A stretch of 64,000 bases of DNA, taken from contig JAOAGT010000002.1 in NCBI GenBank assembly GCA_026415615.1, forward strand, positions 448,545 to 512,544, read 5' to 3'. A program made the translations under genes and the position numbers. Position 1 is the first letter of the stretch. Each line of letters opens with the position of its first letter. Shown here one piece after another: positions 7,864-31,768 of the stretch. The notes beneath the pieces are model-generated. The model was given only the letters and a program-made list of their open reading frames with translations. It did not search any database and had not been told where the DNA came from. This DNA comes from Thermoleophilia bacterium (lineage in GTDB: Bacteria > Actinomycetota > Thermoleophilia > RBG-16-64-13).

Positions 7864-9591
7864 ATGGGAACAGGGCGCATTCCCCCTCCATATCTCCCTA
7901 AAGACCACTGGGAATACAACCTTTACGAATATCACAAGGGGCTCCCCGACAAGAGTCACTACGAGTTCATCGCTAACACACCCGGGGTCAAGACGGCCGA
8001 ATATTGGAAGGAATGGTGCCAGGCCATTTTCTACGCTGGCACTACCCTTTGCATGTGGAACGCACTCCCCGAGGTTAAAGCGGCCTTTCTGTCACTGTGC
8101 TCGTTTGAGCCAGGCATGAAGGTATTTCTGGTGGGCAAGTATTTGTGGGAAAGCGGTCTAGCGGACGCGGTTCGCTCCCTTGTCGGAGATTCGGGAACTC
8201 TCGGCATCCTTGACATGACTGATCAAGTTCTCGAGACTGTGCGTGAGCTGGGTCCGCGGCGGACGGTTCAGTATGAGGCTGCGGGGGCTACTGGCAGCCG
8301 GGCGGCTAGGCCGTTAGTTTGGCCCTTGACGTGTTTTGACGGACTACCAGAAGGAAGCCTAGACAGAGTGGTTTTCTTCAATGGCGGCGCGCATGTAGCT
8401 AATTGGGAGCATGTGGCGTCAGAGATAAGCCGCGTTCTTGGGGAGCACGGACGACTGGTGATGGCGGAAGCTCCTCTGGGCGGTAGGGAGTTTGAGAATG
8501 CTTTGCATCTCGATTCCCATTATGAGTCTTTCATTCTCAGGGTACTTTCCGGCCTAGGTCTGTCGGAGAATGAGCTTCCGTATGTGGACCCTCGGGGTCT
8601 AAGCGAGCTTCTGCGGCCGCATTTTGCGTGGACCAGGTGGTGGTCACACCGGGGCATTCTCCTGTTGTACGGAGCCAAGGGGAAGCACGGTCACGAGATT
8701 GCCGTGCCTGGGCCGGCAGCTTCACTTCCCTGTTCAGACGAGGCAAGGGGTCCAGTGAGCGCATTTCTCGCCGTCAAACCGGTGACCAGCAGCTGGGAGC
8801 TAATGACTGAGCGGGAAAGAGAGATCTGGGGTGAGACTGTCGAGGATATTCTCACCCCTCACATGGGGAAATGCGTCACCTGGGGAGGGGGATCTCTTTG
8901 CTGGAATTACCGCAACCAGCGGGAGATCACGGACATCATGTGGAGCAACCTCGCCGCAAAGCCCGGAGACAAAGTAATGGTGATCGGGGAGTTTCTGCAC
9001 GACCTGGGCACCCTTGAGGAAGTCAAGAGGCGAGTGGGACCTACCGGCCAGGTTTTCCCTGTTGATATAACTGCTTCGCCTTGCTCTTATGATTACAAAG
9101 GTTGGCAGGCTAAGCGTAAAGCCTACATGGATCTAGGTTCACCTGAGGAGTGGCCCTACGATTTTGCGGATGACTTTCCGGACGAGTTTTTCGACGTGCT
9201 GTTCCTGCCTCAAGGTGTACACCACTGCAACAACTGGCTTAGGGACGCTCCCAGACTTCTGCGCGCAGTCAAAGTTGGCGGGCAGGTCATGGCGATCGAG
9301 TGTGGAATCAACCGTCCGGAGATGGCGCTAGCCAGAGATTTAAGTGCTCTTGTGCAGGTGGTGGGCGACCGGGTGTTTCGCATCGCGCTGCCTGAATGGC
9401 TCGTGGGGCCGTTGAGCCCCGAAGGGCCTCTCCCAGCAGGTACTGGCTATGGCCACGAGGGTCGCCCGTACCATGATGTGCCGACGGCGCATCTTCGCGA
9501 GGCCTTTGGCGCGGGGCTTACGGACGTTTGCAGTTTGGAGTACAAGGGCTGGATCCTCTTCTGGGGGTATAAGGCGCCGCGGACTGTCTAA
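7864..9591 (+). CDS. hypothetical protein with two tandem degenerate class-I methyltransferase-like (Rossmann) domains; paralog A
   Basis: 575 aa with GAGGAG ribosome-binding site. N-domain: FLVGKYLWESGL (motif-I position but no GxGxG), LGILDMTDQVLETV, GSLDRVVFFNGGAHVANWEHVASEISRVLGEHGRLVMAE (post-II/III-like). C-domain: KVMVIGEFLHDLGTL...VFPVDIT...VKVGGQVMAIE. Clear paralog of 29360..30883. Confidence 0.7.
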   Translation: MGTGRIPPPYLPKDHWEYNLYEYHKGLPDKSHYEFIANTPGVKTAEYWKEWCQAIFYAGTTLCMWNALPEVKAAFLSLCSFEPGMKVFLVGKYLWESGLADAVRSLVGDSGTLGILDMTDQVLETVRELGPRRTVQYEAAGATGSRAARPLVWPLTCFDGLPEGSLDRVVFFNGGAHVANWEHVASEISRVLGEHGRLVMAEAPLGGREFENALHLDSHYESFILRVLSGLGLSENELPYVDPRGLSELLRPHFAWTRWWSHRGILLLYGAKGKHGHEIAVPGPAASLPCSDEARGPVSAFLAVKPVTSSWELMTEREREIWGETVEDILTPHMGKCVTWGGGSLCWNYRNQREITDIMWSNLAAKPGDKVMVIGEFLHDLGTLEEVKRRVGPTGQVFPVDITASPCSYDYKGWQAKRKAYMDLGSPEEWPYDFADDFPDEFFDVLFLPQGVHHCNNWLRDAPRLLRAVKVGGQVMAIECGINRPEMALARDLSALVQVVGDRVFRIALPEWLVGPLSPEGPLPAGTGYGHEGRPYHDVPTAHLREAFGAGLTDVCSLEYKGWILFWGYKAPRTV

Positions 9592-9743: not shown

Positions 9744-11111
9744 TCACTGCCCCGGCCACGGTGGCTTCGGGTAAATGGGTTTAGCTGTCCGCTTTGGCCC
9801 TGGGTCTATTACCTCGATCACCCCGTTTTGCCACTGGCCGATGAAGCCAGCGTAACAATCGCGGGCAAGAAGCTGGTTCTCAAACCAAGTATCTCCCAGC
9901 ACAGTCTGGAAATGCTCAGTCTTTAGGACCTCAGCCACTTTCTTGTTGTCCAAAGTGCCGGCCTTTTCGATAGCTTGCTTCAACATGTCAAGCGCAGCCA
10001 CAAAGTAGGCATAGCCGTAGTAGTTCATGTTGGCTTCGGTTCCGACTCTTTGCAGCAGCTTGTCGTGGAGTTGAGCAAGAGCAGGTGAGCTATGCACGCT
10101 CCAGACTCCATAGCCGCAGACCCCCTCCACCACTTTGTAGCCTTGTTCTGGTCCTTTGTCGCCTCCCATGGCAAACGGGAAAGCGCCAAAGGTTGCTCCG
10201 GGGCCCATTACCAGCATGCGCGGGTTATAGCCCAGTTGCATCATCTGGGCCACCATCGGGAAGTTCTGATCTGGGTAGCAGGGTACGAAGAAGCAGTCAG
10301 GATCAGCCTGCTGCACCTTTCGTAGTATCTGAGTGAAGTCTGCGGTGTTGGCAGGAATTGCCTCGTCATAAAGCAGCTTGATTCCCGCGTTCTTGGCCTC
10401 CTGGCGCATAACCTCGGAGTACTCTAGCCCGTGGAGGTCATCGAGATACACCATAGCTACGCTCTTAACTCCCACTTCCTTGAATATATCGATGAGGGTT
10501 GGGATGTCGTAGTGATTTGAATAGCTGAGCAAGCCAAAGAACATCGGCAAGTCGGGCAGCACCTCTTCAATGCTCTTGGCCCCTGCTTCCCCCGAGATGA
10601 GCAGATAACCGTGGGAGTTCGCCACATTCGCGGCTGCGAAGACAAATGCTGTACTTGCGGGAGAAAGGATGAAGTCCACCTTGTCCTCGACCATAAGCTT
10701 CTCAAGGAGCCGCATGCAGGTGTCCATATCGCTCTGGTCGTCGTAGACTTTCATCTCGATGGGGAGTTTCTTGCCATACTCAGCTACGTAAATGCCGCCT
10801 TCGGCATTGACCTCTTCTACCCACATCTTATAGATGACACCCAAAGCATTTTGCTCGAAGAAGCTTAGTGGTCCAGAGATGGGACGGGCGGCTCCGATGA
10901 CTATCTTGTCTTTTCCGCCCAGAGTGGTGGCAGTAGAAGTTTCTGTACTAGGAGCAGCAGTAGTCGTAGGTCCGGATGTGGTCGAAGGTCCGGCAGTTGT
11001 GCTGGGTGCTGCCGTTGTAGTTGTCTCCTTCTCGCCACAAGCAGCAACCAGCAAGGCGACCGCGGCGAGTATGCATACAACGGCCAGAATTCGTAAGTGT
11101 TTAGATCTCAT
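9744..11111 (-). CDS. ABC transporter substrate-binding lipoprotein, branched-chain amino acid (LivK/Leu-Ile-Val-binding) family fold
   Basis: Signal peptide plus lipobox LVAACGEKE. Long TTTAAPSTTAGPSTTSGPTTTAAPSTETSTATT linker. Type-I periplasmic-binding fold motifs (KIVIGAARPISGP..., FIGQW). No permease or ATPase adjacent. Confidence 0.8.
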   Translation of the reverse strand: MRSKHLRILAVVCILAAVALLVAACGEKETTTTAAPSTTAGPSTTSGPTTTAAPSTETSTATTLGGKDKIVIGAARPISGPLSFFEQNALGVIYKMWVEEVNAEGGIYVAEYGKKLPIEMKVYDDQSDMDTCMRLLEKLMVEDKVDFILSPASTAFVFAAANVANSHGYLLISGEAGAKSIEEVLPDLPMFFGLLSYSNHYDIPTLIDIFKEVGVKSVAMVYLDDLHGLEYSEVMRQEAKNAGIKLLYDEAIPANTADFTQILRKVQQADPDCFFVPCYPDQNFPMVAQMMQLGYNPRMLVMGPGATFGAFPFAMGGDKGPEQGYKVVEGVCGYGVWSVHSSPALAQLHDKLLQRVGTEANMNYYGYAYFVAALDMLKQAIEKAGTLDNKKVAEVLKTEHFQTVLGDTWFENQLLARDCYAGFIGQWQNGVIEVIDPGPKRTAKPIYPKPPWPGQ

Positions 11112-12066: not shown

Positions 12067-13092
12067 TCAGCTTGCTCCCCGGTACTTCTCAACACCCACC
12101 CCAATAGGCTGGGACATCAAAAAGAAAACTTGCTTTCTTATGTCTCTGATGATCAAAGGTCCCTGACTTACGTTTGGGGGGATATAGGCGAAGAAACTCT
12201 TGGTAATCACGTGCTTCTCGCCCCCAATCCAGAGCTCGACCTCAGCGCAAAGGTCCGTGATGTCCTCGTAGTTAAGACCCAGCATAGCCAGGGAGGTGCC
12301 GTGAGGAACGGCGTGCTCGTCCATGATCACCAACTCCGCCCTTGTCTCTTTGGTGGGCAGATACCATCTGGTGTCACAGCCAAACTCAGCATCAGGGATC
12401 ACGGTCTCGTCAATATAAGCAGCAGGACGAACGTATTCGGGGTCAAGGGGACGCATGTATTCTGGGCGCTTCACATCCGGAGGCGTGCCGAATACTACAT
12501 ACCGGGCGTATTTGGACTCGGCAGGGTCCACGTGTCTGGCCACTGGCGGCTCTTTCTGTTCCTCCTCTGCCTGTTTGGTTTTTTCGTCTTTCTCCCGTGT
12601 GTAGACCCCGCCTGGCCCCGAAGTCCAATGCACGGTCGGGCGGGAGAAATGATGGCCGGTCACCCCTCCTGAGAACACTGGCATATGAGGGAGCCCGGCT
12701 GGTACGTAGGCTACCCAACTGCTTGGGAGGGGAATAATTTCGTCACCCATCTGAATGGCTGTGGGGTCGGTTTTGCTCGGGTCGTCTGGATCGGTTCCCC
12801 ACCAAGAAAGCAGTTCGGGAAAGTCATGGACATGCGGAAACATGGTGGGTGTCTGGTAGCCCAGCTTGGCCAGGTCTTCCCAGGTTACCTGATTGGGATA
12901 GTCAGGAGGCCAAATCCAGGTGGTTTCCCCATAGTAGGCGCCAGGGATCACGTCGTGGTCGATCCAGTGGACATGCTCCATGCTAATCCGCTTCCCTTGG
13001 GCAGCCAGTTGACGCCTCTGCTCTGGGGTGGGGCCGGGCAAGAGGTGCTGCTTCTGCAATGTGGTGCAAATGTACTTGTCAAACTGACCCAT
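12067..13092 (-). CDS. bicupin-like protein of an HxH...E cupin-like family (two tandem domains)
   Basis: Domain 1 FPHVHDFPELLSWWGTDPDDP...GDEIIPLP...VPAGLPHMPV. Domain 2 EHAVPHGTS...LGLNYEDITDLCAEVELWIGGEKHV...IPPNVSQGPL. Both align with the 13137 and 33431 proteins. AAGGGAGGG ribosome-binding site. Confidence 0.6.
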   Translation of the reverse strand: MGQFDKYICTTLQKQHLLPGPTPEQRRQLAAQGKRISMEHVHWIDHDVIPGAYYGETTWIWPPDYPNQVTWEDLAKLGYQTPTMFPHVHDFPELLSWWGTDPDDPSKTDPTAIQMGDEIIPLPSSWVAYVPAGLPHMPVFSGGVTGHHFSRPTVHWTSGPGGVYTREKDEKTKQAEEEQKEPPVARHVDPAESKYARYVVFGTPPDVKRPEYMRPLDPEYVRPAAYIDETVIPDAEFGCDTRWYLPTKETRAELVIMDEHAVPHGTSLAMLGLNYEDITDLCAEVELWIGGEKHVITKSFFAYIPPNVSQGPLIIRDIRKQVFFLMSQPIGVGVEKYRGAS

Positions 13093-13136: not shown

Positions 13137-13646
13137 CTATGATGTCCCTTTCCCGTAGGGGATTGTTTCAAAATTCATAACCTTGTGGGGATCGAAGTCC
13201 TTGTCTTGCTCAAAATACGGCTCTCTAGTTCCCTCCGGGCCAGCAAGCATGATCTCAACCTGAATTATGGGCTTGTCCACGCGAGTGACTTCTAACGGGC
13301 AGTGGGGAAGGCCAGGTGGGAGATGGACTAGCGTGGGCCGAGTGAATACGTGTTTTTCCATCTCGGGCCCAAAGTGGAGTACTACCTCAGCCTCAAATTC
13401 ATCGGGGTCTTCGGGATTTCCGCTGTACCAGGCCAGGAACTCGTGAAAATTGTGCGTGTGGCAGGGATTATCTCCTCGAAACGGCTTTCGCACAAACTGC
13501 AGGCCCATAGTAAGGGGAAACCCGAGCTGCTGGTGGCCGATCATAAGACCATCGAAGACTACCGTCCCATCTGACTTCATGCTGAGGCGCAAATGGGGCG
13601 GATGATGAATATATTGGTCATACTTTCCGCTCATGCTCGTCTCCAT
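13137..13646 (-). CDS. single-domain cupin-like protein of the same HxH...E family
   Basis: CHTHNFHEFLAWYSGNPEDPDEFEAEVVLHFG...LPPGLPHCPL...IMLAGP. Possible start at the second Met (13634). Confidence 0.6.
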   Translation of the reverse strand: METSMSGKYDQYIHHPPHLRLSMKSDGTVVFDGLMIGHQQLGFPLTMGLQFVRKPFRGDNPCHTHNFHEFLAWYSGNPEDPDEFEAEVVLHFGPEMEKHVFTRPTLVHLPPGLPHCPLEVTRVDKPIIQVEIMLAGPEGTREPYFEQDKDFDPHKVMNFETIPYGKGTS

Positions 13647-14472: not shown

Positions 14473-16320
14473 TTATGGCCACAGCACTTGGGCTATGTCA
14501 TCGAGACCCAGCTCAAGCAGTTTGGCCTTGCTCGGCTTGCCCGTCTTCGTATCCCAGTCCATCTCGACCAGGTACTGATCGTAAATCTCCTCGTGCGTGA
14601 AGGTGATGCCGGCTCGTGGGCCCACGGTCTTGGGCGGTACGCCTCTCATCCTATCGGGGTAGAGGAAAGGCGTCTGGACACCCTCTCTAATGTTGAAGGC
14701 CTGCCTGACGTTGGTGATTCTTTCACCGGTCTTAAGCAGCTCGTCTGCGCTGATGTCCTCCCAGCCGGTCAGGGCTCTCAGAGCTTCGAGCAGTTGGTCC
14801 ACATGTGGATATGCTCCAATCACAAACTGGCAAAGCCCCATGGCGCTTGCTGCGTGCATGAAGTTGGTGCTGATCTTGTGGTAAAGGCCACGGCCGGTAC
14901 GTTGCTCGCGTGGTATATCGGGTATATTCAAGCCTGGTGGGTGTTGCCCGCCTCCCTGATTGTGTCTTCCGGGGGTGGGGTCGCAGCCATAACCAATGGC
15001 AAATCCCCAACCGCCACGAGGGTCGTGACCAGCAATCTCTTGACCGCCAATGTGCATGGCATATTTCTCTGCGCCCCGACCAATCTTCTCGGCCGCGCGC
15101 TTTACGCCGTCGGCGATGATGTCGCCAAAGCCCTCACGCTTGGCCATCTTCTCGACCATTGCCACGATAGCCTTGTGATTGCCCCAGGTCATCTCAAGGC
15201 CGTCTGTGTCCGCCTGAGAAAGCACGCCGTTTTCATAACACTCAATGGTGAAGGCGATGCAAGCACCCGCAGAGATGGTGTCTAGGCCATAACGATTGCA
15301 GATGTCGGCGGCCAGGATGATGGAGTCAAGGTTTGAGTTCAGGAGGTTGCTCCCCAGCATAGCAAGCGTCTCGTACTCGGGTTTATGAGCGCCCTCCTCA
15401 TACTTGTATTCGCCTGTTCCGGCTTTCATTAGGCCCCCGCAGGCAATGGGGCAACGCCAGCAGGCAAAGCGGCGCATCTGCTTTTCTAATACCGCTTGCC
15501 CTCCACAAGCTGCGTAGTCGGGAAGATCGACGGTAACCACACCGGCCCAATTCTTGGCTGGAGCGTCGTCGATTATGCAGCACATCTCGAATATGCCGGG
15601 GGTGCCGGTTTCGTGTAGCTGCTCAGCATGGCCGGTAAGGGCGGCCACGTGCTTTTTTCTGAGCTCTTTCATTAACTCGGGGTTGTAGGCCGGCGGGATG
15701 AGATTGCCCTGGGCCACGATAGCCTTTAGACGCTTGGAGCCCATGACCGCGCCGAGACCTGAACGGGCCGCGGCTCGGCCCTTATTGTTGATTACCCCGC
15801 TAATTAGAGCGAGCTTCTCGCTCGCTGGACCGATGCAGGCTACCTCCAGGTTCTTGCCGTGTTTGGCGCGCAAGATATCTTCAGTTTCTACAGTGTCTTT
15901 CCCCCAAATCTCTGCGGCGTCCAGGAGTTGGGCCTCCCCATTGTGAAGGTAAAGGTAGACCGGTTTCTCGGAAATTCCGGTGAAAAAGACGGCGTCGTAA
16001 CCAGCGAACTTAAGCTGCGGGCCAAAGCTCCCTCCCGAGTTGGCGTCCCCCCATCCTCCGGTGAGAGGAGATTTGCCGACTACTGTGTAGCGGGAGCCGC
16101 CGACTACGTCGGTGCCAGTGGTTATGCCGGTCACAAAACCCAACGTGGCGTCGGGGCCTAGGGGATCTACTCCTGGCTTTTGCCGGTCCCAGAGCACTCG
16201 CGCGCCTAGCCCGTATCCGCCCAGGTATTTGCGGGCGGCCTGTTCGTCGAAAGTATCTACGGTTATCTCGTGGGTTGTAAGATCCACCCAGAGGATTTTC
16301 TCCATAGCTCCAAAAGCCAA
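14473..16320 (-). CDS. aldehyde:ferredoxin oxidoreductase (AOR family, tungsten/molybdopterin-containing)
   Basis: N-terminal AOR domain KILWVDLTTHEI...GGYGLGARVLW...GKSPLTGGWGDANSGGSFG. CWRCPIACGG 4Fe-4S ligand region. 615 aa. Confidence 0.9.
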   Translation of the reverse strand: MAFGAMEKILWVDLTTHEITVDTFDEQAARKYLGGYGLGARVLWDRQKPGVDPLGPDATLGFVTGITTGTDVVGGSRYTVVGKSPLTGGWGDANSGGSFGPQLKFAGYDAVFFTGISEKPVYLYLHNGEAQLLDAAEIWGKDTVETEDILRAKHGKNLEVACIGPASEKLALISGVINNKGRAAARSGLGAVMGSKRLKAIVAQGNLIPPAYNPELMKELRKKHVAALTGHAEQLHETGTPGIFEMCCIIDDAPAKNWAGVVTVDLPDYAACGGQAVLEKQMRRFACWRCPIACGGLMKAGTGEYKYEEGAHKPEYETLAMLGSNLLNSNLDSIILAADICNRYGLDTISAGACIAFTIECYENGVLSQADTDGLEMTWGNHKAIVAMVEKMAKREGFGDIIADGVKRAAEKIGRGAEKYAMHIGGQEIAGHDPRGGWGFAIGYGCDPTPGRHNQGGGQHPPGLNIPDIPREQRTGRGLYHKISTNFMHAASAMGLCQFVIGAYPHVDQLLEALRALTGWEDISADELLKTGERITNVRQAFNIREGVQTPFLYPDRMRGVPPKTVGPRAGITFTHEEIYDQYLVEMDWDTKTGKPSKAKLLELGLDDIAQVLWP

Positions 16321-19610: not shown

Positions 19611-20184
19611 GGTGCCCCCCAATCCTAAGATTGCCTGATTTTGCCAAGTCTGCCTGCTGACGTGGAAGTCATTTCTCGCAAGTGCCGAGATGTGCTCTGG
19701 TCCGCTCCAACCTCCTTTGCTCCCGTTTGCTGTCAAGCCGGAACCTGTTGATCAGTGCCTCCCGGTATCGCCAAGCGTATAGCGTGGTGCTCCCGGGCCG
19801 AGACTGCTACTCCGGCGCGCCCGACTATGTTAGTGAGGACTACTAGCACACGCTACTAGCGAATGCAACCGGTCTGTGTTATGTAGGACAGGTAATCGAG
19901 TTACTAGACAGCGTTCTTACCAGGGCAAGATGCTTCCCTCGGTACTGGGAATGAAAGGCGTGACACACAACATGGACTACCTTGACTTGCCCGCGGGCAA
20001 GAAAGAAAACACCAAGAAGGATGACGGTACTGGCCCTGAGGGCAACAGTTCGTCGCCACAGACCGGAACCACCCTCACCACCCACACCCGTGAGATCTCG
20101 GGAACTGTAGCTCGCAGTAGTGAGACCGCGGGAACAAACGGAGGAGGCAGCAAGAGGAGCTCCGTATCTCTGCGGTGGAAGACC

Positions 20185-20832
20185 ATGAAGCCCGAACAAA
20201 AGAAGGAGGCGGTTATCAAAGCCGTACTGCGGGTGATAGCCAAACACGGGGTTCAAGGTACCACCACCGCTCGTATCGCTGCAGCTCTGGGGGTATCTGA
20301 GCCGACCATCTACCGAGTTTTCCCGAGCCGGCGGGAAATGCTTCTGGCTGCGGCGCAAAGTCTATGGCGGCAACGCCGTGAAGAGCTCGAGGCGTTTGTT
20401 CCAGTTGACGCTATGGACTATCTAAGGAAGTTATCTGCGCATCACACCGCTGGCATCCAGAAAACCAGAGTAACCCGGTATCTTTACGAGCTTTCGGTTG
20501 CGCGGCCTTCTGATGGACTCCGTGACTACTTGCGCGGGGAAATGATCGCCGAAGCAGAACGTCTTGCGGCTATTGTGGAGCAAGGACAAAAAGAAGGGTG
20601 CATCCGTGCAGACGTAGACCCCGGGGAAACAGCCTGGCGGATCATGACCGTTTACTGGCTTGAGGCTATGGCCCGGCTCCATGGGCTTGAGGACATTCTT
20701 CTCACCGGGTTTTCCACCCGGTTTTTCGACGGGATCCTAACCGACATTGCTGCCGCGCCTCTAGATGCACCAGGTGAGCAGCAAACTGTAGGGCAAAGTA
20801 GCGTCAAAGCGAGCGGTCTTGAGGGAGTGTGA
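20185..20832 (+). CDS. TetR/AcrR family transcriptional regulator
   Basis: HTH: KEAVIKAVLRVIAKHGVQGTTTARIAAALGVSEPTIYRVFPSRREML. The six-frame ORF starts at 19876 with a roughly 100 aa Gly/Thr/Ser-rich extension. Either start is possible. Confidence 0.7.
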   Translation: MKPEQKKEAVIKAVLRVIAKHGVQGTTTARIAAALGVSEPTIYRVFPSRREMLLAAAQSLWRQRREELEAFVPVDAMDYLRKLSAHHTAGIQKTRVTRYLYELSVARPSDGLRDYLRGEMIAEAERLAAIVEQGQKEGCIRADVDPGETAWRIMTVYWLEAMARLHGLEDILLTGFSTRFFDGILTDIAAAPLDAPGEQQTVGQSSVKASGLEGV

Positions 20833-22873: not shown

Positions 22874-23095
22874 ATGGCCATACGTCACTTTAGTCGTGAC
22901 GATTGCACGGGATGCGGGATATGTGTCGCTGCGTGTCCCATGGATGTGCTTCGTCTGGATGAGGAAGCGCAGAAGGCAACCGTAAGCTATCCCGACGACT
23001 GCATCGCCTGCTGGGGTTGCGAGTCGTTCTGTCCGCAGGGTTGTTTCGATATTTCTCCCGAACGGGCCCGCGGGGAGCTACCCGCTCCTTACTGA
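22874..23095 (+). CDS. 2x[4Fe-4S] ferredoxin
   Basis: CTGCGICVAACP and CIACWGCESFCP motifs in 73 aa. AAGGAG ribosome-binding site. Confidence 0.85.
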   Translation: MAIRHFSRDDCTGCGICVAACPMDVLRLDEEAQKATVSYPDDCIACWGCESFCPQGCFDISPERARGELPAPY

Positions 23096-29212: not shown

Positions 29213-29217
29213 GGGGT

Positions 29218-29258
29218 GGGCGGGCGCAGGCCCTGCAGGGCCTGCGCCCGCCCCCTTT
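29218..29258 (+). terminator. GC-rich palindromic terminator
   Basis: GGGCGGGCGCAGGCCCTGC/GCAGGGCCTGCGCCCGCCC perfect inverted repeat followed by CTTT. Confidence 0.5.
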
Positions 29259-29359
29259 CAGTACCCGTCCAATACGTGGGCCGGGAGTGTAGACTTTCTA
29301 GCCTGCTTCGCGCAGCGCTTCTCTCTTGTTTGTTTCGATAACGGCAAGGAGGTTGCGGT

Positions 29360-30883
29360 TTGACAGCCCTACCCGAGAGAACAGCAAGCTGGTGCCAAGC
29401 GTTGTTCTTTGCTGGATCCACGACCTACATGTGGAATCAGGCGCCGGAGCTTAAAGCGCTTTTCTTGACGGCCTGCTCCTTCGAGGAAGGTATGGACGTA
29501 CTCCTTATAGGCAAGTTCTTGGAGGAAAGCGGTCTTGTTTCGGCCGTTGAGTCGATCCTACGGAGCTGGGGCAATCTGCGGGTAGTGGACTTGGCTCCCC
29601 AGGTTGTGGCTGCATGGCGGGCGGCGGGTGTGGCAGATGAGCAGCCTTCTTTCAAATGGGATCTTGATTGTTTTGATGAGCTCAGAGATGGGAGTCTCGA
29701 CCGTGTCGTGTTGTTTAACGCGGCCTCCCACGTTGCGGACTGGGAACATCTGTCTGCTCAAATCGGCCGGGTTCTTTGTCGAGGAGGCCGGGTTGTAGTC
29801 GCAGAGGCTCCACTGGGCGGGGCTGCTTTTAAACGCGCCCTTGCCTTTCACGCAGGATGGCGAGCAACGGTCGAAGGATTGCTTAGCGGCTTGGATCTAG
29901 AAGAAAGGGCAGTTGCTCCGCCAGAACCGGAGGATCTCAGGGCTCTGCTTGCCCAGCATATGACTTGGGCTCGTGTGCATGAGTGGCAGGGAATCTTTAT
30001 TTGCTACGGACAAAAAGGTCTCACAGAAAGGGAGGAGCTGGAAGCGTCCACAGCTGCCGAGATGGCCGGTCTGGGGGAGAATGATCTGGTCTACGTACCC
30101 GGTCCGGACACGTTTACAGCTTTTCCGCCGGCCAACATCTGGGTGCGCAGTTTCTTGAAGGTGCGTCCAGTGCGCACCACGTGGAGCCTTATGAGCGAGC
30201 TTGAGAAGGAAATTTGGGCAGACACCGCTGTAGAACTAGTGACACACTCAGGTGGCGATCTGTCAACAAATAAGGTGCTGGGGCTTAGCTTGATCGTCGA
30301 GTCGCCACAATCTGAGTTGGCGTCGCAGACACTGGTTTTGACGAAGCCTGCTGCAATAGGAGATGCGCTAGGAGGCTTTTCTCATCACTGGGCTTCTGGG
30401 CTTGTCGGCGCGTTTCTGGAATGCTTCCTGGGTCCAGATGATGGCCACCTTGCAAAGGTTGGAGAAACGCATGGTCCTTCTGAGCTGGGAAGTCTTGTTG
30501 CCAGACACTCGGCAGACGAGCTTGATCTTCTTTTTGTTGACGCCAGACTGGGTGACAGACACTACTGGAAGGAAACAATATCCCTCCTGTTGCCGGTTCT
30601 AAAACCCGGGGGCCGGCTTGTGTTATTTGCGGAAGATGGCGATGCTATCCAGCTGCTGTCGTTTCACAGCGCCTTCGCGCGCCTGCTTCTGGCAAGACTA
30701 GTGACTCCAGCAGACCCACTCGCTGCAGACTCCGCGGACGCGCTCTGTAACCGACTGACGGGCGGCATAAATATGGACCCCGAGTTGCTGCGCCAAGTGC
30801 TTGCAGGGTTCTTTGATGAGATCTCTGTGGCAGGACACGGCGGCTTCGTATTTGTGTCTGGCCGAAAACCTATGCGTCTTTAG
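29360..30883 (+). CDS. hypothetical protein with two tandem degenerate class-I methyltransferase-like domains; paralog B
   Basis: 507 aa, TTG start with AAGGAGG ribosome-binding site. Aligns with 7864..9591 along its length: WCQALFFAGSTTYMWNQAPELKALFLTACSFEEGMDVLLIGKFLEESGL vs WCQAIFYAGTTLCMWNALPEVKAAFLSLCSFEPGMKVFLVGKYLWESGL; GSLDRVVLFNAASHVADWEHLSAQIGRVLCRGGRVVVAEAPLGG vs GSLDRVVFFNGGAHVANWEHVASEISRVLGEHGRLVMAEAPLGG. Confidence 0.7.
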   Translation: MTALPERTASWCQALFFAGSTTYMWNQAPELKALFLTACSFEEGMDVLLIGKFLEESGLVSAVESILRSWGNLRVVDLAPQVVAAWRAAGVADEQPSFKWDLDCFDELRDGSLDRVVLFNAASHVADWEHLSAQIGRVLCRGGRVVVAEAPLGGAAFKRALAFHAGWRATVEGLLSGLDLEERAVAPPEPEDLRALLAQHMTWARVHEWQGIFICYGQKGLTEREELEASTAAEMAGLGENDLVYVPGPDTFTAFPPANIWVRSFLKVRPVRTTWSLMSELEKEIWADTAVELVTHSGGDLSTNKVLGLSLIVESPQSELASQTLVLTKPAAIGDALGGFSHHWASGLVGAFLECFLGPDDGHLAKVGETHGPSELGSLVARHSADELDLLFVDARLGDRHYWKETISLLLPVLKPGGRLVLFAEDGDAIQLLSFHSAFARLLLARLVTPADPLAADSADALCNRLTGGINMDPELLRQVLAGFFDEISVAGHGGFVFVSGRKPMRL

Positions 30884-30888
30884 ACAAC

Positions 30889-31200
30889 CTATGCGTCTTT
30901 GGGCTCGCTGGGGCTGTTCTGTGGGCTGTCAGAGAAGAGACTCTCAAACCGACGCGCGGCTTTTTCTTTTTCTGCCTCCTGAGCAGCTCTTACTTTCGAT
31001 GCGGCTTCTTCCAGGGCCACTTTGTGTTGCTCTGCCCGGGCAAGCAGAGTGTCAAGCGAGACCTCCGGCTGCTCCTTCGCCACTTGCTTTAGGATAAAGA
31101 GCACTTCCTCTTGCAGCGTCCGCTGATTGTATGCCGCTCGCATGCGCAAGGCCCGGACTACTTCGTCGGGTACGTTTTTTATGGTCAGGGTGGTAGCCAT
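30889..31200 (-). CDS. ribbon-helix-helix FitA/plasmid-stability-type antitoxin-like protein
   Basis: Start at MATTLTIKNVPDEVVRALRMRAAYNQRTLQEEVLFIL (RHH beta-strand plus helices), then a charged C-terminal tail. No PIN/VapC partner adjacent. Confidence 0.5.
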   Translation of the reverse strand: MATTLTIKNVPDEVVRALRMRAAYNQRTLQEEVLFILKQVAKEQPEVSLDTLLARAEQHKVALEEAASKVRAAQEAEKEKAARRFESLFSDSPQNSPSEPKDA

Positions 31201-31219
31201 TACATTGACGCTCCTGCGT

Positions 31220-31768
31220 TCAAAGCCTAAGTACCAACAAGCGGGCTCGCTCTTCAATTCGCCTTAGCTCCGCTTCATCAGGAAGACCTTTGATGTTGCC
31301 CATTCTTCCTCTTGTGCTCAGTTCCTCAGACCCATGGAACTCAGAAAGCACATACCATTCATCTAGCACAGCGAACCCTAGGTGCTCAAAAAACTGCGCA
31401 GCGTACATGCCAGCTGGGATGGCCTCTCTGAGCCCCGTGTGTGGTCCCGAGAAAGTGCAGAAAATTAAGGCATTTCTGTTAGGCAGGCGCGGTGCTCCTG
31501 GCAAGACCCTGCCTTGATGGCGATACTGTTCAAACTTGCTCTTTAGATAATCATCCATGGCCCGGGGCGGATGCCAGTTGTAAGACGGAAACCCCAGGCA
31601 GACAAGATCAAAATCAAAGAAGTCAAGATCTCCAGCCTCTTCTACTGGACGCAAGGTAGTGGCCATTCCTCCGGCGCGGAGTCCTGCTTCGATGGCCCGA
31701 GCTACCTTGGCTGTATTTCCTGTGCGTGACCAATAAAGCACCAGGGCAGTTCTTGGCGCGTTGGTCAT
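31220..31768 (-). CDS. flavodoxin-like fold protein (NAD(P)H-dependent FMN reductase/flavodoxin family)
   Basis: TALVLYWSRTGNTAKVARAIEAGL flavodoxin-type phosphate-binding loop. Confidence 0.7.
   Translation of the reverse strand: MTNAPRTALVLYWSRTGNTAKVARAIEAGLRAGGMATTLRPVEEAGDLDFFDFDLVCLGFPSYNWHPPRAMDDYLKSKFEQYRHQGRVLPGAPRLPNRNALIFCTFSGPHTGLREAIPAGMYAAQFFEHLGFAVLDEWYVLSEFHGSEELSTRGRMGNIKGLPDEAELRRIEERARLLVLRL

What the first reader, a model, noticed from the sequence alone, without database searches (positions are those of the whole stretch)
7864..9591. Uncharacterised paralog pair: proteins built from two degenerate methyltransferase-like Rossmann domains
This is a 575 aa protein and a 507 aa paralog (29360..30883) 20 kb away. 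They share long colinear identity (for example WCQA.F.AG.T..MWN..PE.KA.FL..CSFE.GM.V.L.GK.L.ESGL and GSLDRVV.FN...HVA.WEH....I.RVL...GR.V.AEAPLGG). Each half has the strand/helix spacing of class-I SAM methyltransferases, but the glycine-rich SAM loop is replaced (GKYL/GKFL). They are therefore either non-canonical methyltransferases or a binding scaffold. I cannot match them to a characterised family. Both sit at the outer borders of one catabolic supercluster, which suggests a dedicated function in that pathway.
Basis: seen in the sequence. Interest (0 to 1): 0.72.

Follow-up and report, generated by a model that had tools for sequence, protein, structure and literature searches.

The report
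Rare tandem methyltransferase-like protein pair
Two related genes in a Thermoleophilia genome each encode a protein made of two fused, divergent copies of the common SAM-methyltransferase fold; they belong to a very rare, unstudied family that usually sits next to nutrient-uptake transporter genes, and whether they still methylate anything is unresolved.

Summary
ORF A (7864..9591, 575 aa) and ORF B (29360..30883, 507 aa) are paralogs: 40% identity over 312 aa, E 2e-66. Both are predicted with confidence to consist of two class-I methyltransferase-fold modules. The two modules are homologous to each other (hhalign 99.5%). GxGxG is replaced by a family-conserved loop, G-K-(Y/F)-x-x-E-S-G in the N-module and G-E-(F/L)-P-E-D-L-G in the C-module.

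No curated family fits beyond a partial Methyltransf_11 hit. The family is tiny: 27 proteins among 5.8 billion and 2 loci in 185,579 genomes. About 240-aa single-module relatives exist, sometimes as adjacent paralog pairs.

The 'catalytically dead' reading is not established. The N-module keeps the ribose-binding acid (20/20) and the adenine-side acid (18/20). Similar loop substitutions occur in the genuine SAM enzymes TPMT and COMT. The C-module has lost the ribose acid in most members.

The 'borders of one supercluster' idea is weak. A's conserved partner is the adjacent Liv-type ABC transporter (8 of 25 loci). B lies behind a strong terminator-like hairpin and evolves about ten times faster than its neighbours.

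My verdict is a new variant of a known kind, with biochemistry unknown and moderate interest.

The parts
7864..9591 (+). ORF A, 575 aa: tandem methyltransferase-fold protein (GenBank locus tag N3B14_05020, 'hypothetical protein', Thermoleophilia MAG)
   Evidence: 100% match P0001; AF2 pLDDT 88.4, pTM 0.90; fold matches
7864..7998 (+). A residues 1-45: N-terminal cap extension (P-x-P-Y-P-P-K-D-H-W-E-Y...), conserved in A-type homologs and absent from B
   Evidence: alignment; (46% mean pairwise identity)
7999..8688 (+). A residues 46-275: N-module (Rossmann-like core, lid, beta6/7 hairpin). It keeps the beta2-end acid D117 (E/D in 20/20) and D159 (acidic in 18/20)
8134..8160 (+). A residues 91-99, G-K-Y-L-W-E-S-G-L: family-specific replacement of motif I (GxGxG) in the N-module
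   Evidence: gap-free alignment of the equivalent loop of single-module relatives to G-C-G-V-G-T-P-G of MitM/RebM
8689..8865 (+). A residues 276-334: inter-module linker, whose second half is the helical cap of the C-module (homologous to the N-terminal 'PWDY...' cap of single-module relatives)
   Evidence: (single-module proteins match profile positions from about 290)
8866..9588 (+). A residues 335-575: C-module. It is homologous to the N-module and strongly conserved among A-type proteins (60.8% mean pairwise identity), but its beta2-end position 401 is acidic in only 8/19
   Evidence: (hhalign 99.5%, E 7.6e-23)
8986..9009 (+). A residues 375-382, G-E-F-L-H-D-L-G: motif I replacement in the C-module (family consensus G/A-E-F-P-E-D-L-G; E376 in 19/19)
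9744..11111 (-). Liv-type (Peripla_BP_6, HAAT family) lipoprotein solute-binding protein, convergent with A. It is the only Liv-type gene in the window and the family's most recurrent neighbour
29360..30883 (+). ORF B, 507 aa: divergent paralog of A (TTG start, Shine-Dalgarno AAGGAGG at 29346..29352)
29360..30034 (+). B residues 1-225: N-module (46% identical to A's; motif I G-K-F-L-E-E-S-G-L at 29510..29536; beta2-end D76). dN/dS 0.19 against the L008 ortholog
30035..30229 (+). B residues 226-290: linker and cap, the most constrained part of B (dN/dS 0.04)
30230..30880 (+). B residues 291-507: degenerate C-module (about 20% identical to A's, dN/dS 0.42, lower model confidence, still an alpha/beta domain with a terminal hairpin)
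29214..29262 (+). GC-rich hairpin plus T-run immediately after the GlcE-like stop codon: an intrinsic-terminator-like element separating B from the upstream flavoprotein genes
   Evidence: dG -47.4 kcal/mol, z -4.6; conserved in L008, where the tail is TTTTTT

Best explanation
A and B belong to a small, uncharacterised family of two-module proteins. The family arose by fusion or duplication of a roughly 240-aa UbiE/RebM-like class-I methyltransferase-fold module. Free-standing single-module relatives still exist, sometimes as adjacent paralog pairs.

The fused protein behaves as a built-in pseudo-heterodimer. The N-module keeps a nucleoside pocket: G1 of motif I, the ribose-binding acid at the end of beta2 and the adenine-side acid after beta3. 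It is the likely cofactor site. The C-module has lost the ribose acid in most members but stays strongly conserved in A-type proteins, so it more likely supplies substrate binding or structural support. This division of labour is known from nematode di-domain phosphoethanolamine methyltransferases.

I infer that A is a cytoplasmic small-molecule-modifying enzyme acting on a compound imported by the adjacent Liv-type ABC transporter. SAM-dependent methylation is the most likely chemistry. B is an old, fast-evolving duplicate with an eroding C-module and is probably transcribed on its own.

Shown: the fold, the internal duplication, the conserved motifs, the rarity, the transporter linkage and the rate asymmetry. 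Inferred: SAM binding, catalysis and the substrate.
For: Fold and duplication:
- N-half against C-half: hhalign 99.5%, E 7.6e-23.

Single-module relatives:
- Free-standing relatives of about 240 aa exist.
- Two adjacent paralogs occur in L014.
- The single-module profile matches RebM (E 1e-9) and MitM (E 3e-8) through motif I without gaps.

Nucleoside pocket:
- N-module beta2 acid is E/D in 20/20, D159 is acidic in 18/20, G91 is G in 16/20. C-module position 401 is acidic in only 8/19.
- The same kinds of loop substitution occur in genuine SAM enzymes: TPMT has G-K-A-V-E and COMT has G-A-Y-C-G.

Precedent and linkage:
- One active and one inactive domain is documented in di-domain PMTs (PMC4805780).
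- A Liv-type ABC component is the immediate neighbour in 8 of 25 loci. The only such gene in the 64-kb window is next to A.
- A's C-module is at least as conserved as its N-module, 60.8% against 57.1%.

B specifically:
- dN 0.108 and omega 0.27, against 0.00-0.07 for the neighbouring enzymes. C-half omega is 0.42.
- A hairpin lies between the GlcE-like gene and B.
Against: - No direct evidence of SAM binding exists. The model coordinates could not be inspected, so pocket geometry is untested.
- G2 is a bulky Y/F and G3 is acidic in both modules, and the acidic residue two positions before G1 is absent.
- A subclade (P0027, P0033) keeps the G-K-(F/Y)-x-x-E-S-G-L loop and the beta2 acid but carries a well-supported signal or lipoprotein leader with a P/T/S linker. 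That would place it outside the cytoplasm, where SAM is not available.
- Sequence similarity to solved methyltransferases is confined to motifs II/III for the tandem proteins.
- The adjacent SBPs fall into two clades, so there is no single orthologous partner. About two thirds of loci show no transporter, although many have short flanks.
Confidence: 0.42

Rival explanations
1. The family are pseudoenzymes or ligand-binding proteins. The methyltransferase fold has been re-used as a cofactor-free binding or scaffold module, like the anamorsin/Dre2 N-domain. It might sense or hand over the solute taken up by the neighbouring ABC transporter, or regulate that transporter.
For: - GxGxG is lost in both modules.
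- Anamorsin's SAM-free domain is a good structural match, and weak Anamorsin_N/DRE2_N Pfam hits appear in relatives.
- The exported subclade keeps the same loop motif.
- Linkage is to transporters and not to a fixed enzyme set.
- The C-module lacks the ribose acid yet is highly conserved.
Against: - Full conservation of the beta2 acid (20/20) and near-full conservation of the post-beta3 acid in the N-module and in single-module relatives is hard to explain without a nucleoside-type ligand.
- There are many invariant charged residues around the expected active-site loops, including K72, K92, E96, H177, R190, E202 and 'AEAPLGGxEF'.
- TPMT and COMT show that the loop changes are compatible with SAM binding.
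Confidence: 0.28
2. The family are enzymes on the methyltransferase fold that do something other than methyl transfer. They would either be cofactor-independent (cyclase, isomerase or hydrolase-like, as SpnF or LepI illustrate) or use SAM or another adenosyl compound in a different way.
For: - An exported subclade exists.
- The family recurs next to CocE/NonD or FrsA-type alpha/beta hydrolases and catabolic redox genes.
- The remodelled loop carries conserved K/E and E/D side chains that could be catalytic.
Against: No specific catalytic constellation can be recognised. The structural matches to non-methyltransferases are no better than those to ordinary methyltransferases. The neighbourhoods do not point to one reaction.
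Confidence: 0.2
3. The two genes are dedicated accessory components of the TRAP / AOR / URO-D / FAD_binding_2 / GlcDEF-like catabolic cluster that lies between them.
For: - B follows the GlcE-like gene on the same strand, in the window and in L008.
- A homologous FAD_binding_2 plus small ferredoxin pair lies beside two single-module relatives in L014.
Against: - None of 24 other A-type loci contains that cluster.
- L008 is 95% identical in intergenic DNA, so it is not an independent observation.
- A strong terminator-like hairpin precedes B.
- B evolves far faster than the cluster's enzymes.
- A is flanked by a LytR-family gene and a convergent SBP gene, not by the cluster.
Confidence: 0.1

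Closest known systems
Di-domain phosphoethanolamine N-methyltransferases (plant PEAMT/AtPMT1-2, nematode PMT-1/PMT-2; PDB 5wp4, 5wp5, 4krg, 4krh)
   Same: Two class-I methyltransferase-fold modules sit in one chain, and they are the top structural matches over both halves. In the nematode enzymes only one of the two domains is catalytic (PMC4805780).
   Different: Sequence identity is only 8-14%. The relative orientation of the two modules differs (whole-chain rmsd above 20 A and TM about 0.2). PMT active domains have a canonical glycine loop. There is no phosphobase-pathway context here. The two modules here are each other's closest relatives, so the duplication is independent.
UbiE/Coq5, RebM and MitM-type small-molecule methyltransferases (Pfam Methyltransf_11 / Ubie_methyltran)
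   Different: GxGxG is replaced by G-(K/E)-(Y/F/small)-x-(D/E)-x-(S/C)-G. All curated NCBIfam models score far below cutoff, for example 17-32 bits against 158-378. The tandem fusion and the family-specific caps are also different.
Thiopurine S-methyltransferase (2bzg) and catechol O-methyltransferase (1vid and others)
   Same: They are bona fide SAM enzymes whose motif I carries the same kinds of substitution. TPMT has G-K-A-V-E and COMT has G-A-Y-C-G, each with the beta2-end acid.
   Different: No specific homology is detectable: no TPMT or Methyltransf_3 Pfam hit was found. They serve only as proof that the loop changes do not exclude SAM binding.
Anamorsin / Dre2 N-terminal methyltransferase-like domain (4m7r, 2yui)
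   Same: It is a class-I fold without a glycine loop. It has among the highest per-domain identity (20%) and TM (0.6) in the searches, and relatives give weak Anamorsin_N/DRE2_N hits.
   Different: It is a eukaryotic Fe-S assembly factor with a single domain. All hits fall below the Pfam cutoffs. That anamorsin does not bind SAM is my recollection of the literature and was not tested here.

Membership tests
Class-I (Rossmann-like) SAM-dependent methyltransferase fold | Seven-stranded alpha/beta sandwich with the beta6/beta7 hairpin | tested here: met
Class-I (Rossmann-like) SAM-dependent methyltransferase fold | Motif I glycine-rich loop (E/D-x-G-x-G-x-G) after beta1 | tested here: not met
   Only G1 is kept (G91 in 16/20). 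G2 is Y/F and G3 is E/D in the N-module. The C-module has G/A-E-F-P-E-D-L-G. Similar deviations exist in TPMT and COMT.
Class-I (Rossmann-like) SAM-dependent methyltransferase fold | Acidic residue at the end of beta2 that binds the ribose hydroxyls of SAM | tested here: met
   N-module: E/D in 20/20 (D117 in A, D76 in B). Single-module relatives: E/D throughout. C-module: only 8/19, so the feature is not met there.
Class-I (Rossmann-like) SAM-dependent methyltransferase fold | Actual binding of SAM or SAH and methyl transfer | not testable with these tools
This needs biochemistry.
Pfam Methyltransf_11 (PF08241) | Score above the gathering threshold over the whole domain | tested here: inconclusive
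   Whole-protein scores of 33.6 bits (A) and 32.2 bits (B) exceed the 21.2-bit cutoff. For A the match covers only profile positions 55-95 of 95 (motifs II/III). For B it covers 12-95.
UbiE/COQ5 quinone C-methyltransferases (NCBIfam TIGR01934, NF001240 and related) | Score above the curated equivalog or subfamily cutoff | tested here: not met
   The best score is 17.3 bits against a 378-bit cutoff for A. Relatives score at most 32 bits.
Di-domain phosphoethanolamine N-methyltransferases | Sequence homology to PEAMT/PMT with canonical SAM motifs in at least one domain | tested here: not met
   Identity is 8-14%. The profile match to 5wp4/5wp5 is only E of about 1e-3 over about 50 residues. There is no canonical motif I in either module.

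The most novel reading that the evidence does not exclude
The family is not a SAM enzyme at all. It would be a duplicated methyltransferase fold re-purposed as a cofactor-independent binding or catalytic module that works with solute-binding-protein-dependent importers. Members would act both in the cytoplasm (A, B) and, in one subclade, on the outer face of the membrane as lipoproteins. That would make it a new functional class derived from the commonest methyltransferase fold.
Probability: 0.3. Interest if true: 0.55.

Novelty: new variant of a known kind. Interest (0 to 1): 0.36.

Why it matters
If the N-module still binds SAM, the family adds a new motif I variant and an independent case of 'one active module plus one conserved non-cofactor module' fused in a single chain. 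Free-standing paralog pairs survive as the likely precursor state, which makes it a tidy model for how pseudo-heterodimeric methyltransferases evolve.

If it does not bind SAM, it would be a bacterial counterpart of the anamorsin-type re-use of the fold, tied to ABC importers.

In either case the practical consequence is modest. The family is extremely rare, its substrate is unknown, and databases currently label it 'SAM-dependent methyltransferase' or 'hypothetical protein' without support for activity.

Tried and rejected
- Curated families: Pfam and NCBIfam scans of A, B and ten relatives found only generic, mostly partial methyltransferase hits.
- PDB sequence searches: the single sequence found only 3i9f at E 0.19. 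The family profile reached only E of about 1e-3 over motifs II/III.
- The afdb50 fold library was unavailable, so no AlphaFold-database neighbours were obtained.
- Model coordinates are not exposed to scripts, so the cofactor pocket could not be measured.
- hhalign in global mode against two canonical methyltransferases from fetched loci failed. In local mode it suggested a 5-residue insertion in the loop. I rejected that reading after the HMMER alignment to RebM and MitM showed a gap-free match.
- An orthologous SBP partner was rejected, because the adjacent SBPs form two clades with about 24% identity between them.
- Substrate inference from the SBP and the S15-type hydrolase led nowhere. 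The SBP matches urea, amino-acid and aromatic-acid binders equally weakly, and the hydrolase matches an uncharacterised CocE/NonD protein.
- The literature searches that could have turned up a description of this family found none.
- The invariant Cys (C52 in A) as a catalytic residue was rejected as universal, because it is Arg in B's ortholog P0029.
Full report
**1. The observation**

ORF A (7864..9591, +, 575 aa, ATG) and ORF B (29360..30883, +, 507 aa, TTG with an AAGGAGG Shine-Dalgarno 7 nt upstream) are present as described. A second alignment joins A's C-half to B's N-half (22%, E 1e-6), which already hints at an internal repeat.

The similarity between A and B lies in the N-module (46%) and the linker (34%). 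The C-halves share only about 20%.

In that stretch B is longer by 18 residues. A is longer overall because of a 45-residue N-terminal cap and insertions in its C-module.

Both proteins are exact matches to GenBank proteins of a Thermoleophilia MAG. They are annotated 'hypothetical protein' (N3B14_05020) and 'methyltransferase domain-containing protein'.

**2. Fold and architecture**

AlphaFold2 with the family alignment gives a confident model of A (pLDDT 88.4, pTM 0.90). It has two alpha/beta modules, each with strands beta1-beta5 and a terminal beta6/7 hairpin.

- Foldseek against the PDB ranks the two-domain phosphoethanolamine N-methyltransferases first (E 1.5e-9), followed by many single-domain SAM methyltransferases.
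- B's model (pLDDT 82.7, pTM 0.84) gives the same picture. Its N-module is confident and its C-half weaker (pLDDT 40-90), but the C-half is still alpha/beta with the terminal hairpin.

A profile-profile comparison of the family's N-halves and C-halves gives 99.5% probability, E 7.6e-23 over 208 columns. The two modules are therefore duplicates of one another, and 'GKYxxESG' aligns with 'GEFPEDLG'.

**3. The family**

The family is very small.

- 27 proteins at E below 1e-3 among 5.8 billion clusters.
- 132 hits, only 21 below 1e-30, among 1.84 billion representatives scanned exhaustively.
- 2 loci in 185,579 species-representative genomes, one Actinomycetota MAG and one Chloroflexia MAG.
- 21 loci in the metagenome collection.
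- The B-type has only two orthologs, at 82% and 59% identity.

The exhaustive search also found single-module relatives of about 240 aa. Their motif I position reads h-h-h-G-E-(A/G/C/S)-h-(D/E)-x-C-G-F. In locus L014 two such paralogs (42% identical) lie about 1 kb apart. This is the likely precursor state of the fused proteins.

No Pfam or NCBIfam family describes any of them beyond generic hits, and for the tandem proteins the match is partial or weak.

**4. Is the SAM site gone?**

| Position | N-module | C-module |
|---|---|---|
| Motif I loop | G91 16/20, K92 19/20, Y/F93, E96 19/20, S97 18/20, G98 18/20 | E376 19/19, G382 16/19 |
| Acid at the end of beta2 (ribose position) | E/D in 20/20 | acidic in 8/19 |
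| Acid after beta3 | D159 acidic in 18/20 | not tabulated as such |

The single-module profile aligns without gaps through motif I to MitM and RebM, as G-E-a-l-e-a-c-G against G-C-G-V-G-T-P-G. The loop therefore has normal length. G1 is kept, G2 becomes a small residue in the singles or an aromatic in the tandem proteins, and G3 becomes acidic.

I verified two precedents against PDB sequences. Thiopurine methyltransferase reads P-L-C-G-K-A-V-E-M...V-G-V-E-I-S. Catechol O-methyltransferase reads L-E-L-G-A-Y-C-G-Y-S...T-M-E-M-N. Both are genuine SAM enzymes, so the loop changes alone do not prove loss of SAM binding.

Evidence on the other side:
- For the tandem proteins, sequence similarity to solved methyltransferases covers only motifs II/III.
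- The anamorsin domain is a good structural match.
- A divergent subclade (P0027, P0033) keeps the loop motif and the beta2 acid but starts with a convincing signal or lipoprotein leader. P0027 has a Shine-Dalgarno, then MKK, a 15-residue hydrophobic core with mean hydropathy 2.6, C-S-C and a P/T/S linker. An exported SAM enzyme would be very unusual.

The two modules are not equivalent. Among A-type proteins the C-module is at least as conserved as the N-module (60.8% against 57.1% mean pairwise identity). It is not a decaying remnant, even though it lacks the ribose acid.

**5. Genomic context**

In the window the order is: LytR-family gene, A, a convergent Peripla_BP_6 lipoprotein SBP, a minus-strand block (SnoaL, two unknown genes, SDR, aldehyde:ferredoxin oxidoreductase, TRAP DctMQP), a plus-strand block (TetR, URO-D-like, SDR, a small ferredoxin, FAD_binding_2, GlcD-like, CCG/Fe-S, GlcE-like), B, and then a minus-strand RHH gene and flavodoxin. 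That is several transcription units, not one cluster bracketed by the paralogs.

Across 25 A-type loci the most recurrent neighbour is a Liv-type ABC component.

- It lies within 6 kb in 9 loci.
- It is the immediately adjacent gene in 8 loci (gaps of 117-638 bp, mostly on the same strand). In L017 the order is permeases, SBP, then the homolog.
- The 64-kb window holds exactly one such gene, and it lies next to A.
- The SBPs form two clades, with about 24% identity between them. The link is therefore to this transporter type and not to one ortholog.

A CocE/NonD-type hydrolase recurs in 3 loci. Other loci show a PadR/HAAS 'Sensor' pair, an Opp-type ABC system with MarR, or a molybdopterin oxidoreductase with an Fe-S protein. 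None contains the window's GlcDEF-like cluster.

B's synteny with that cluster is seen only in L008. L008 has 95% identical intergenic DNA, so it is not an independent observation. One loose echo is that a homologous FAD_binding_2 (28% identity) plus ferredoxin (41%) pair sits beside the two single-module paralogs of L014.

**6. B is a fast-evolving, separately punctuated copy**

A 19-bp GC stem (dG -47.4 kcal/mol, z -4.6) followed by a T-run sits immediately after the GlcE-like stop codon. It is conserved in L008, where the tail is TTTTTT.

Against L008, B has dN 0.108 and omega 0.27. The neighbouring enzymes have dN 0.001-0.028 and omega 0.00-0.07, and only TetR is comparable at 0.21.

Within B, omega is 0.19 for the N-module, 0.04 for the linker and cap, and 0.42 for the C-half. 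B is therefore still constrained, so it is not a pseudogene, but its C-module is eroding.

A neighbour-joining tree of N-modules places the B clade beside A and the other Thermoleophilia-type sequences. This fits an old duplication in this lineage. The branches are long and there is no bootstrap, so the placement is weak.

**7. Interpretation**

*Shown:* a rare family of fused, duplicated class-I methyltransferase-fold modules with a conserved non-canonical motif I. The N-module retains the nucleoside-binding acids. The C-module is conserved but has lost the ribose acid. The family is linked to Liv-type importers. B is a rapidly evolving paralog.

*Inferred:* the N-module is the cofactor site and the C-module a substrate or structural partner, as in nematode di-domain PMTs where one domain is active (PMC4805780). 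A would modify an imported small molecule, most likely by SAM-dependent methylation.

I put this at about 0.42. The rivals are a cofactor-free binding or scaffold role at about 0.28 and another chemistry on the same fold at about 0.20.

**8. Novelty and score**

This is a new variant of a known kind. It is an uncharacterised, very rare subfamily of the commonest methyltransferase fold, with an independent tandem fusion and an unusual but not unprecedented cofactor loop.

Divergent methyltransferase-like proteins without known function are common in MAGs, and 'one active plus one degenerate domain' is an established theme. The less ordinary points are the conserved loop shared by cytoplasmic and apparently exported members, and the tight transporter linkage.

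Interest is 0.36.

Noticed in passing
window 22874..23095 (+): A 73-aa 2x[4Fe-4S] ferredoxin ORF lies between the SDR and FAD_binding_2 genes. It is conserved in L008. A homologous ferredoxin (41%) and flavoprotein (28%) pair occurs beside two single-module methyltransferase-like paralogs in L014.
   Followed up: partly
L006 10001..11584 (P0027); also P0033: The most divergent tandem family members carry an N-terminal signal or lipoprotein-like leader plus a P/T/S-rich linker, so they appear to be exported. P0027's start is supported by a strong Shine-Dalgarno and an upstream in-frame stop. Its neighbours include a TAT-signal flavoprotein and a subtilase.
   Followed up: partly
L014 6179..6901 (-) and 8001..8732 (+): Two single-module family paralogs (42% identical) flank an ornithine-cyclodeaminase-like gene. 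They sit in an island with TctC-type SBPs, FrsA-like hydrolases, a CMD-family protein and a class II aldolase. This is a possible unfused heterodimer version of the tandem proteins.
   Followed up: partly
window 29214..29262 (+): A very stable GC-rich hairpin (-47 kcal/mol) with a short T-run lies directly after the GlcE-like stop codon. It could be an intrinsic terminator or a REP-like element.
   Followed up: partly
window 12067..13092 (-) and 13137..13646 (-): Two adjacent proteins with no Pfam hit share 29-34% identical segments, and the larger one matches the smaller in two separate places. They look like a small repeat-containing paralog pair inside the AOR/SDR block.
   Followed up: no
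window 30889..31257 (-): This is an RHH (FitA-like) antitoxin-type gene with no obvious toxin partner. Its 5' end overlaps the 3' end of the flavodoxin gene (31220..31768) by 38 nt. The arrangement is conserved in L008.
   Followed up: no
window 14473..16320 (-): A full-length tungsten-type aldehyde:ferredoxin oxidoreductase (AFOR_N plus AFOR_C, E 1e-75 and 1e-101) lies next to TRAP transporter genes in a Thermoleophilia genome. This suggests anaerobic acid or aldehyde metabolism.
   Followed up: no
window 19876..20832 (+) against L008 608..1420: The TetR regulator ORF is 318 aa in the window but was called at 270 aa in L008. The window's GTG start is probably too far upstream. TetR also has the highest dN/dS (0.21) among B's neighbours.
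   Followed up: no
L013 8001..9588 against L005 10001..11356: On the same Chloroflexia contig, tblastn matches residues 7-573 of A, but the called protein P0024 has only 451 aa. The homolog is probably frameshifted or mis-called near its 3' end.
   Followed up: no
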